DNA of 64,000 nucleotides from the NCBI RefSeq assembly GCF_048403405.1, contig NZ_CP183129.1, one strand, 5' to 3'. Position 1 is the first letter of the stretch. Every line of letters begins with the position of its first letter. The position numbers are program-made. The DNA comes from Escherichia coli. GTDB taxonomy: Bacteria > Pseudomonadota > Gammaproteobacteria > Enterobacterales > Enterobacteriaceae. Below, one piece after another: positions 61,901 to 64,000 of the stretch.

Positions 61901-64000
61901 GCCCCTAAGCGCCGGACCAGCACGTCGTAGACCGGACGAAAATAGGGAGCAAACTTTTCTGCGATATCTCCAGGTAAGAAGCCAAGATCTTCATCGGCTT
62001 GCAGAACTGGACGGGTGACGATAATCCTGTCGACATCCTTATGTATCAGGGCCTCTGCCGCTTTTGCTGCGCTGATCCAGGTTTTTCCGCACCCGGCTTC
62101 GCCCGTGGCGAATATCAGCTGCTTACTCTCAATAGCCTTCAGATAGTGCAATTGCGCTTCATTTCGCGCGAGGATGGGCGAGGTATCGCGACTGTCGCGG
62201 GCCATACCAATGGCTTCTACGCCGCTCATCTGCACAAGCGAGGTGACCGATTCTTCTTCACGCTGCTTATGGCTGCGCGAATCCCGTCTCAGCACACGTT
62301 TTGCCTCGCGACGAGCTTTGATCACTGCTTTTTGTCTTCCCATGGAGAGCACCTTGAGTTGTTTGTATTCATCACACGCGCCGTTGGCAGCGCGATTATG
62401 CGCACGAACATCAGAGGGTTGGCTTCCTTGTAAGCCATAGTTTGCTTTTGGATAAAATGCCGAAAAACGGCTACGCGCACCGTTTACGGCGTCGGTAACA
62501 CATGAAAAGAAAGGATGAGGTTGAAAATACAAAGTGACGAGATGACTACCGGAGGAGAAATCTCCGCGAGTGGTGGCGCGCTGATTATCTAAAACATGTC
62601 CAGTACAGGACGTTACCATCCGCGATCTCCATAGTGACTGACTATCACTGCCGGGAACTTCCGCTGCTACTTAATAATTACAACAGAACTCGCATTCATT
62701 GCAACAATATATTCACTTATATTTAACGATAAACACCCATTTCGGTGACATTAGTTTCTACTGGAAAGATGACAGAGTGATGACAGAGATGAAAAAAGCT
62801 GTGTGCTTTCAGCAGGATTCGCAGTACTGGTAAAAGCTTGCCGGATGCGGCGTGAACGCCTTACCCGACCTACAAGTGATTAATAATTTGTGCACCAAAC
62901 TCATGCCCGATAAACCTGCGCATCGGGCATATTTGCGTCGTTCAAACCTGTAATAGCGCCCTTCCCAGATAATCGTTCGTGTCCTTCACCCCCGGCAGCG
63001 CAAAAAAATAACCGCCGCCGATAGGTTTAACGTATTCCTCCAGCGCTTCGCCATTGAGCCTTTTTTGTACTGTCAGGAAGCCTTTTTCCAGATCGTGTTG
63101 GTAACAGACAAACAATAGCCCCATATCCAGTTGTCCGGAGTTGGTGACGCCCAACGAATAACTGTAGCCACGACGCAGCATCAGGCTGGACTCACTCTCT
63201 GGCGTGCGGGGATTCGCCAGCCGGATATGGCTGTCCAGCGCAATCACCTTCCCCTCCGGATCGCTGGCGTAATCGGGAACATCATGCTCATGCTGCATTC
63301 CCAGCGGCGCACCGGTTTGTTTGTCGCGACCAAAAATCGTCTGCTGTTCTTTCAGTGGCGTTCTGTCCCAAAACTCCACCCGAAACTGAATCAACCGCAC
63401 CGCCTGGTAGCTGCCGCCGATTGTCCACGCAGGCTCCTGCTGATCTGCCGTCACCCACACCACTTGTTGCATCAACTTATCATTCTGGCTATCGGGATTG
63501 GCAGTGCCGTCTTTGAAACCCAGCAAATTAATCGGCGTCTCTTTGCCTTTACTACGCGCTGCATGATCGGAAATAAACCCTTCCCGCTTCCAGCGCACGC
63601 TGAGCAAATCCGGCGTGTGTTTGATGATATCGCGCAGCGCATGGATCACCGTGTCCTGGGTGTTGGCGCAAATTTGTAGCAACACATCACCATGACATAA
63701 CGCCGCATCCAGCGAGTCGTTGGGGAAACGCGTCATTTTCTGCAACTTTTTCGGCATCTGCGGTGTAAGGCCAAACCGCTCATCAAACAATGAGTGGCCC
63801 ACCGATAACGTTATGGTGAGATTATCGGACGCAATGTAGCCGCCAAGAATGCCGGAATCGAGTGGAGGCAGGCGCGGATTTGGCGTTTCTGGTGCCGCTC
63901 CGCCCTGAGTCAGAAAAGCAAAACGCTGAGTCAACAAGCGAAACAACCGTTCAAGATCGGCTTTATCGCTGGCAAGCACATCAAACGCCACCAGCATCAT

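What the first reader, a model, noticed from the sequence alone, without database searches (positions are those of the whole stretch)
62767..62788. Tandem CTGTCAT Pho box upstream of phoH
Minus strand CTGTCATCACT-CTGTCATCT forms two direct 7-bp repeats at 11-bp spacing, about 150 bp upstream of the phoH start codon, consistent with PhoB-dependent induction.
Basis: partly seen in the sequence, partly recalled or inferred. Interest (0 to 1): 0.15.

Follow-up and report, generated by a model that had tools for sequence, protein, structure and literature searches.

The report
Known PhoB box of phoH promoter
The tandem CTGTCAT repeat is real and is the already well-characterised PhoB binding site (Pho box) that switches on the E. 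coli phoH gene when phosphate runs short, so the finding is correct but ordinary.

Summary
On the minus strand, 62786-62769 reads CTGTCATCACTCTGTCAT: two perfect 7-bp repeats 11 bp apart, and the only match with fewer than 3 mismatches in the window. The window is E. coli chromosome (efeB - phoH - pgaDC).

The 18-bp box is identical to the K-12 site. Published ChIP-seq reports PhoB bound there, and phoH RNA falls 2.8-fold in a phoB deletion. A weight matrix built from the 58 other ChIP-seq sites scores it 18.5 bits, top of the window and 6th of 59 sites. A weak -10 hexamer (GAAACT) lies at exactly the offset seen at phoA, phoB and pstS. In 78 enterobacterial phoH promoters scanned at this offset, all but two Escherichia relatives that lost the 5' half-site keep a PhoB-like repeat and a -10-like hexamer at the same position.

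Nuances: the box serves the upstream promoter P1. A constitutive promoter P2 (start site at 62668) and a four-repeat ArcA operator lie downstream.

The "start codon 150 bp away" opens a 92-codon stretch that is translated but shows no peptide-level constraint. It contains hairpins with compensatory changes. The conserved PhoH core starts at 62343.

The parts
62780..62786 (-). Pho box 5' half-site, CTGTCAT (upstream PhoB protomer)
   Evidence: Sequence read directly. Part of the ChIP-seq motif TGTCATCACTCTGTCATC. T1/G2/A5/T6 of the motif are conserved in at least 74 of 77 orthologous promoters.
62769..62775 (-). Pho box 3' half-site, CTGTCAT (promoter-proximal PhoB protomer, occupying the -35 position of P1)
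   Evidence: T12 and G13 are invariant (77/77) and A16 is in 74/77 orthologous promoters. This half-site is retained even in E. albertii and Escherichia sp. MOD1, which lost the 5' half.
62753..62758 (-). Predicted -10 hexamer of the PhoB-dependent promoter P1, GAAACT. The start site is inferred near 62746.
   Evidence: It sits at the same 9-nt offset from the 18-mer as the -10 hexamers of phoA, phoB and the proximal pstS box. The consensus is GAGACT with A2 in 67/77 and T6 in 57/77. The start site itself is an inference, because the original S1 mapping paper could not be read.
62698..62751 (-). ArcA-P operator with four direct repeats. It overlaps the P1 start region and the -35 of P2.
   Evidence: Park et al. 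2013 supplement gives the site ATGTCACTGAAATGG...GTTGCAAT, a 60-bp DNase footprint at -80 to -21 of P2, and 25-fold ArcA repression of phoH. Mapped to the window.
62668..62704 (-). Constitutive promoter P2: -35 TTGCAA (62704-62699), -10 TAATTA (62680-62675), start site A at 62668
   Evidence: Kim et al. 2012 genome-wide TSS table lists the phoH start site 49 nt upstream of the 354-aa ATG, with 221 reads in phosphate-replete cells. The hexamers were read from the sequence. The -10 region is conserved across genera.
62344..62619 (-). 92-codon stretch annotated in K-12 as the PhoH N-terminus. It behaves as a translated, structured leader. Its conserved SD+AUG is GGAGAUCGCGGAUG, ending at 62617.
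   Evidence: There is no codon-position periodicity in conservation: 0.75/0.77/0.76, against 0.98/0.99/0.75 in the core. The frame is kept free of stops in 78/78 loci in its first half. It is fused to the core in 52 loci and out of frame in 26. Hairpins show compensatory changes.
61555..62343 (-). Conserved PhoH core CDS (262 aa plus stop), starting at ATG 62343 with SD AAGGUG
   Evidence: PGAP annotation WP_000533536.1. It is 93-100% identical over 262 aa in 80 enterobacterial species. It shows strong codon periodicity. Ribo-RET detected an in-frame internal initiation site in phoH.

Best explanation
This is the Pho box of the phosphate-starvation promoter (P1) of E. coli phoH. When phosphate is scarce, PhoR phosphorylates PhoB. 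A PhoB dimer then binds head-to-tail to the two CTGTCAT repeats, which sit where a -35 element would be. From there it recruits sigma70 RNA polymerase to the weak -10 hexamer GAAACT 10 bp downstream, starting transcription near 62746.

Shown for the identical K-12 sequence, in published work: PhoB occupancy in vivo, PhoB-dependent phoH RNA, and PhoB-dependent sigma70 occupancy. Shown here: sequence identity to that site, a high independent matrix score, canonical box-to-(-10) spacing, and positional conservation across Enterobacteriaceae.

Inferred: the exact P1 start site, and the sigma70 region 4 contact (by analogy with the PhoB-DNA and PhoB-sigma4 structures of Blanco et al. 2002 and 2011).

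The box adds a phosphate input on top of a downstream constitutive promoter P2. An ArcA-P operator covers the P1 start region and the -35 of P2.
For: - The repeat is exact and unique in the window.
- The locus is efeB-phoH-pgaD of E. coli.
- The box is identical to K-12.
- Fitzgerald et al. 2023 Table 1 lists a ChIP-seq peak at 1084845, score 11, motif TGTCATCACTCTGTCATC, with phoH RNA 37,076 in wild type against 13,375 in the phoB deletion (significant). They also report >2-fold lower sigma70 occupancy in the deletion. By my mapping the box is at K-12 1084825-1084842, 3 bp from the peak centre.
- The leave-one-out PWM gives 18.54 bits, rank 6 of 59, against a null maximum of 14.67 +/- 1.62 per 64 kb.
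- The -10 offset is identical to phoA, phoB and pstS.
- In 78 orthologous promoters scanned at this offset (77 distinct) from many genera, the best sense-strand PWM hit lies 428-447 nt upstream of the core ATG in nearly all of them, with the TG..AT-N5-TGT.AT positions and the -10 A2/T6 conserved.
- The 71-bp promoter segment is present in 5330 of 5426 complete E. coli genomes.
- The review definition of a Pho box is two 7-nt direct repeats plus a 4-nt spacer, core CTGTCAT, with head-to-tail PhoB binding.
- Two papers cite Kim et al. 1993 for PhoB control, P1 and P2.
Against: - The -10 hexamer matches TATAAT at only 3 of 6 positions, and the generic sigma70 scan finds no promoter here. That is expected for PhoB promoters, which lack a -35, but it is not positive evidence.
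- The 4-bp spacer is CACT rather than the A/T-rich consensus.
- The PhoB effect on phoH RNA is only about 2.8-fold, and was no longer detectable as a sigma70 occupancy change in an hns-deleted background.
- The P1 start site was not seen in any dataset I could read. The only genome-wide start site found is P2, and the original S1/footprint paper is not held.
- The window strain is not K-12. It has one substitution immediately 5' of the box and a different REP arrangement upstream.
Confidence: 0.95

Rival explanations
1. The tandem repeat is a chance direct repeat in an intergenic region and has no regulatory role.
For: Short two-copy repeats are common. At <=3 mismatches the window gives 7 matches (6 besides this site), against 4.4 expected.
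Against: An exact 14/14 match is expected about 5e-4 times per window. The site is bound by PhoB in vivo in K-12. It is positionally conserved across genera although the flanks have diverged.
Confidence: 0.01
2. The repeat is mainly the target of a different OmpR/PhoB-family regulator that also reads 11-bp-spaced direct repeats (for example ArcA-P spreading upstream, or CusR/OmpR-type cross-binding). On this view PhoB binding is incidental.
For: ArcA-P protects 60 bp starting about 20 bp downstream of the box and represses phoH 25-fold. Many PhoB ChIP sites are transcriptionally inert. In Salmonella HilD also acts directly on the phoH regulatory region.
Against: The reported ArcA site (62751-62698) does not include the box. 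The half-sites are perfect CTGTCAT, not ArcA's TGTTA. phoH RNA and sigma70 occupancy both fall in the phoB deletion.
Confidence: 0.03
3. PhoB binds here, but the site acts as a roadblock or insulator against read-through from the upstream efeUOB operon rather than as an activator of phoH.
For: efeB ends 156 bp upstream on the same strand. The terminator-like hairpin and REP element between them vary between strains.
Against: Deleting phoB lowers phoH RNA rather than raising it. The box-to-(-10) geometry is that of PhoB-activated promoters.
Confidence: 0.01

Closest known systems
phoH P1 Pho box of E. coli K-12 (Kim, Makino, Amemura, Shinagawa & Nakata 1993, J Bacteriol 175:1316; ChIP-seq site 1084845 in Fitzgerald et al. 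2023)
   Same: The 18-bp box is identical, as are all bases from the box to 62746. The gene order efeB-phoH-pgaD is the same, and so are P2 and the ArcA operator downstream.
   Different: The base immediately 5' of the box is T here and A in K-12. There are a few substitutions in the ArcA repeats. The REP/hairpin arrangement between efeB and the box differs: only 495 of 5417 genomes share it over 80% of a 601-bp query.
Pho boxes of pstS, phoA and phoB (the classical PhoB-activated promoters)
   Same: Two TGTCAT-like repeats 11 bp apart replace the -35, and the -10 hexamer starts 9 nt after the 18-mer. The PWM score is in the same range: pstS 22.9, phoB 20.8, phoA 19.3, phoH 18.5.
   Different: phoH has a single box (pstS has two) and a much weaker -10 (GAAACT). 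Its spacer is G/C-containing (CACT). Induction is far smaller, 2.8-fold against 200- to 1000-fold, because a constitutive promoter lies downstream.
ugpB dual-promoter arrangement (Pho boxes plus a second, differently regulated promoter)
   Same: A PhoB-dependent promoter is combined with a second promoter that responds to another signal (for ugp; for phoH P2 and ArcA).
   Different: At ugp the Pho-box promoter is the downstream one and the partner is cAMP-CRP. At phoH the Pho-box promoter is upstream and the partner input is ArcA repression.

Membership tests
Pho box (PhoB~P binding site of a PhoB-activated sigma70 promoter) | Two 7-bp direct repeats resembling CTGTCAT separated by 4 bp (11-bp periodicity) | tested here: met
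   14 of 14 repeat positions match CTGTCAT-N4-CTGTCAT at 62786-62769. The definition is taken from the review PMC4415409.
Pho box (PhoB~P binding site of a PhoB-activated sigma70 promoter) | High score against a matrix of independently determined in vivo PhoB sites | tested here: met
   The leave-one-out PWM gives 18.54 bits, rank 6 of 59. It is the top hit in the window, and 4 of 200 null windows reach it.
Pho box (PhoB~P binding site of a PhoB-activated sigma70 promoter) | The box occupies the -35 position, about 10 bp upstream of a -10 hexamer, on the strand of the regulated gene | tested here: met
   GAAACT lies at the same offset as the -10 hexamers of phoA, phoB and pstS. The hexamer is conserved across 77 promoters. 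The box is on the phoH strand. The hexamer is weak, and the start site is inferred, not observed.
Pho box (PhoB~P binding site of a PhoB-activated sigma70 promoter) | PhoB occupancy in vivo or in vitro | tested here: met
   Established by sequence identity to the published site. The K-12 ChIP-seq peak at 1084845 has the motif TGTCATCACTCTGTCATC, and the window is identical over the 18-mer. It was not measured in this strain. The footprint in Kim et al. 1993 is known only through citations.
Pho box (PhoB~P binding site of a PhoB-activated sigma70 promoter) | PhoB-dependent, phosphate-limitation-induced transcription of the downstream gene | not testable with these tools
   The literature for K-12 reports a 2.8-fold drop in phoH RNA in the phoB deletion (q<0.01) and >2-fold lower sigma70 occupancy. 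No expression data exist for this strain.
Pho box (PhoB~P binding site of a PhoB-activated sigma70 promoter) | A mapped PhoB-dependent transcription start (P1) downstream of the box | not testable with these tools
   The Kim et al. 1993 paper is not held. The only start site in a readable dataset is P2 at 62668, from phosphate-replete cells.

The most novel reading that the evidence does not exclude
The novelty lies not in the Pho box but downstream of it. The 276 nt annotated in K-12 as the first 92 codons of PhoH (62619-62344) may be an undescribed cis-regulatory leader of Enterobacteriaceae. It would be a translated upstream reading frame with an unconstrained peptide. It contains conserved hairpins that show compensatory changes, and an invariant UGGCUUACAAGGAAGCCA hairpin. 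Together these would govern use of the conserved internal start at 62343, by translational coupling or by a bound factor.
Probability: 0.3. Interest if true: 0.4.

Novelty: already known. Interest (0 to 1): 0.08.

Why it matters
For the finding itself, very little. It rediscovers a textbook regulatory site from raw sequence, which is a useful positive control for the scan but adds no biology.

Three by-products have modest value:
- Cross-genus evidence that the phoH Pho box and its weak -10 are fixed in position, while two Escherichia lineages have lost one half-site.
- A clear demonstration that the K-12 and PGAP start codons of phoH disagree because the intervening 276 nt is not under peptide selection.
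- Covariation evidence for RNA hairpins in that leader. This could explain the 'enhanced synonymous-site conservation' noted around the internal initiation site by Ribo-RET.

Tried and rejected
- **Generic promoter scan of 62300-63000.** It found no sigma70 promoter. This is uninformative, because PhoB promoters lack a -35 and both -10 hexamers lack the required T6 or A2.
- **Original promoter paper and a dRNA-seq paper.** Neither Kim et al. 1993 nor the dRNA-seq paper could be read, so the P1 start site stays inferred.
- **Two other ChIP-seq PhoB sites expected in this interval of K-12 (ycdU, yceA).** Neither exact 18-mer is present in the window. I did not pursue this.
- **Rfam search of 62250-63000.** It has no family for the leader. 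The only meaningful hit is a partial naRNA4 match, which is a REP element. The BSnc120 and CPEB3 hits are noise.
- **CsrA binding to the ACAAGGA hairpin loop.** No paper links phoH and CsrA. In the E. coli CLIP/transcriptomics supplements b1020 appears only in a functional-enrichment gene list, and the Salmonella supplements list only the paralog phoL. This stays an untested idea.
- **Single-sequence folding of the leader.** The z-score is -0.92, so overall thermodynamic stability gives no support. Only the covariation in local hairpins does.
- **A third Pho half-site in E. coli.** None lies 11 bp up- or downstream of the box, as read from the sequence, although several other genera have a TGTCA abutting the -10.

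Full report

Yes. The minus strand from 62788 to 62767 reads CTCTGTCATCACTCTGTCATCT. CTGTCAT occurs at 62786-62780 and again at 62775-62769, so the two copies start 11 bp apart with the spacer CACT. A search for CTGTCATNNNNCTGTCAT on both strands of the window finds this one exact match. All other matches need three mismatches: 6 such hits, with 4.4 +/- 2.2 matches at <=3 mismatches expected from shuffles. An exact match of 14 specified bases is expected about 5e-4 times in 128 kb (my arithmetic).

**2. Where are we?**

The 601 bp around the site match 5,417 of 5,426 complete E. coli genomes. The annotation on this strand is efeO-efeB, an intergenic region, then phoH, with pgaD-pgaC on the opposite strand. 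Aligned with K-12 MG1655, the 18-bp box and everything downstream to the phoH ORF are collinear without gaps. The box itself is identical, and the only nearby change is the base immediately 5' of it, T here and A in K-12.

**3. Is it a PhoB site?**

A review defines a Pho box as two 7-nt direct repeats separated by 4 nt (equivalently two 11-nt units). The most conserved E. coli core is CTGTCAT, and the PhoB effector domains bind head-to-tail. This site matches that core at 14 of 14 repeat positions.

Fitzgerald et al. 2023 (mBio, PMC10294691) list a ChIP-seq peak at K-12 coordinate 1084845 with a score of 11. The motif is TGTCATCACTCTGTCATC, assigned to phoH. phoH RNA is 37,076 in wild type against 13,375 in a phoB deletion, which is significant. 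They also report >2-fold lower sigma70 occupancy at this site in the deletion. By my coordinate mapping the box is at K-12 1084825-1084842, 3 bp from the peak centre.

To avoid circularity I built a weight matrix from the other 58 ChIP-seq motif instances and left phoH out.
- The site scores 18.54 bits. The next best hit in the window scores 14.47.
- It ranks 6th of the 59 in vivo sites, behind pstS, phoB, phoA, yfcJ and agp.
- The maximum score in simulated 64-kb sequences averages 14.67 +/- 1.62, and 4 of 200 reach the observed value.

**4. Spacing to a -10 element**

I fetched the classical PhoB promoters from K-12 at their ChIP-seq coordinates and aligned them on the 18-mer. At phoA, phoB and the proximal pstS box the -10 hexamers (TATAGT, CATAAT, TATTTT) all begin 9 nt after the 18-mer, which is 10 nt after the second 7-mer.

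At that offset phoH has GAAACT (62758-62753). It matches TATAAT at only three positions, but it keeps the two most important ones, A2 and T6. A start site about 7 nt further on would fall near 62746. This is an inference. The S1 mapping paper (Kim et al. 1993) is not in the library, and the generic sigma70 scan finds nothing here, as expected for promoters without a -35.

**5. Conservation**

A protein-anchored search with the 262-aa PhoH core returned 80 loci from as many enterobacterial species, all 93-100% identical in protein. In almost all of them the best sense-strand PWM hit within 700 bp upstream lies 428-447 nt from the core ATG, although the sequence differs between genera: TGTTATATTTCTGTAATA in Enterobacter, TGAAATAATTCTGTCATC in Citrobacter.

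78 of these loci had enough upstream sequence to scan at this offset, giving 77 distinct promoter strings.
- Motif positions T1, G2, A5, T6, T12, G13 and A16 are each conserved in at least 74 of 77.
- The hexamer at the canonical offset has the consensus GAGACT, with A2 in 67/77 and T6 in 57/77.
- Two natural exceptions, E. albertii and Escherichia sp. MOD1-EC7003, keep only the 3' half-site. The sequence upstream of it is replaced.

Within E. coli the 71-bp promoter segment is present in 5,330 of 5,426 genomes.

**6. Promoter context**

The box is not the only input.

Kim et al. 2012 (PLoS Genet) mapped a phoH start site 49 nt upstream of the 354-aa ATG in phosphate-replete cells, which is window position 62668. 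It has a -35 TTGCAA (62704-62699) and a -10 TAATTA (62680-62675). This corresponds to the constitutive P2 of Kim et al. 1993, as cited by Park et al. 2013.

Park et al. 2013 also footprinted ArcA-P over 60 bp (-80 to -21 of P2). Their four-repeat site maps to window 62751-62698, and they measured 25-fold ArcA repression. So the ArcA operator starts about 20 bp downstream of the Pho box and covers both the inferred P1 start and the P2 -35.

This explains why the PhoB effect on total phoH RNA is only about 2.8-fold. In Salmonella, HilD is a further direct activator.

**7. The 'start codon' and what lies between**

PGAP genomes start phoH at ATG 62343, giving 262 aa, and Klebsiella phoH is annotated at 789 nt.

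Evidence that the 276-nt 'extension' is not under peptide selection:
- Across 80 sequences, conservation by codon position is 0.98/0.99/0.75 in the core. In the extension it is 0.75/0.77/0.76, with no periodicity.

Evidence that it is nevertheless translated:
- Its SD+AUG (GGAGAUCGCGnAUG) is conserved.
- Its reading frame has no stop in its first half in 78 of 78 loci, while the other two frames average 1.6 and 2.8 stops. About 3.8 stops per 92 codons are expected from composition.
- It is fused to the core in 52 loci. In 21 it shifts frame and ends 19 nt into the core, and in 5 it ends 26 nt before the core AUG.

Evidence for RNA structure:
- RNAalifold on 29 sequences predicts local hairpins.
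- A pair count gives 18 pairs with compensatory changes, against 10.4 +/- 1.4 in shuffles (0 of 500 reach it) and 8-9 in slid registers.
- The best-supported helices are 62493-62487/62462-62456 (all 7 pairs covary), 62394-62388/62383-62377 and 62569-62563/62553-62548.
- UGGCUUACAAGGAAGCCA (62437-62420) is invariant.

Limits and prior knowledge:
- Rfam has nothing for this region.
- Single-sequence folding is not unusually stable, z = -0.92.
- Meydan et al. detected an in-frame internal initiation site in phoH by Ribo-RET and noted enhanced synonymous-site conservation. The two-start arrangement is therefore partly known, but the hairpin covariation is not described there.
- A CsrA role for the GGA-containing loop is only an idea, and the datasets I checked were uninformative.

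**8. Verdict**

The element is the already known Pho box of phoH P1. Its novelty class is 'already known', and interest is low (0.08). The only part with some novelty potential is the structured, translated leader downstream, which I report as a side observation.

Noticed in passing
window 62344-62668 (minus strand): The region between the P2 start site and the conserved PhoH core start is a translated but peptide-unconstrained leader. It has a conserved SD+AUG at 62630-62617, no codon periodicity, and a frame kept open in 78/78 loci. It is fused to the core in 52 loci and frameshifted in 26. Hairpins with compensatory changes lie at 62493-62456, 62394-62377 and 62569-62548, and an invariant hairpin UGGCUUACAAGGAAGCCA lies at 62437-62420. 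It is not in Rfam. K-12 (354 aa) and PGAP (262 aa) disagree on the start codon for this reason.
   Followed up: partly
window 62698-62751 (minus strand): A four-repeat ArcA-P operator (published footprint and 25-fold repression in K-12) begins about 20 bp downstream of the Pho box. It overlaps the inferred P1 start and the P2 -35. The window allele differs from K-12 at several positions within the repeats.
   Followed up: partly
window 62836-62870 and 62900-62935 (minus strand): There is a REP element (partial naRNA4 match, 33 bits) and, just after the efeB stop, a hairpin (AUGCCCGAU...AUCGGGCAU). This efeB-to-box segment is highly variable: only 495 of 5,417 E. coli genomes cover 80% of a 601-bp query, and K-12 has a different REP arrangement 22 bp longer.
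   Followed up: partly
L016:1550-1580 (E. albertii) and L012:1550-1600 (Escherichia sp. MOD1-EC7003): These two lineages keep only the promoter-proximal CTGTCATC half-site. The 5' half-site is replaced by unrelated sequence (PWM below 6 bits). They are natural half-box mutants that could show whether phoH has left the Pho regulon there.
   Followed up: partly
L027, L088, L020, L056, L083 (about 420-445 nt upstream of the core ATG): In several genera (Yokenella, Kluyvera, some Enterobacter) a third TGTCA half-site directly abuts the -10 hexamer (for example ..aatgtcaGACACT). In others the PWM registers one helical turn downstream, which suggests three tandem PhoB half-sites rather than two.
   Followed up: no
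window 62735-62805: Only 74 of 5,330 E. coli genomes are at least 99% identical to the window over the 71-bp promoter segment. Most differ at two positions outside the box, so the window carries a minority allele of the phoH promoter.
   Followed up: no
window 49922-49939 (-) and 55882-55899 (-): The next-best PhoB matrix hits are TTTCACCAGAATGTCATT (14.5 bits) and GGTAATGACCCTGTCATC (13.8 bits). Both are within the range expected by chance for 64 kb. The exact 18-mers of the weak K-12 ChIP-seq sites in ycdU and yceA are absent from the window.
   Followed up: no
window 61512-61537 (minus strand): A terminator-like hairpin AGCCCGG-GCGAA-CCGGGCU followed by UUGUUUU lies about 20 nt after the phoH stop codon, facing the convergent pgaD gene.
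   Followed up: no
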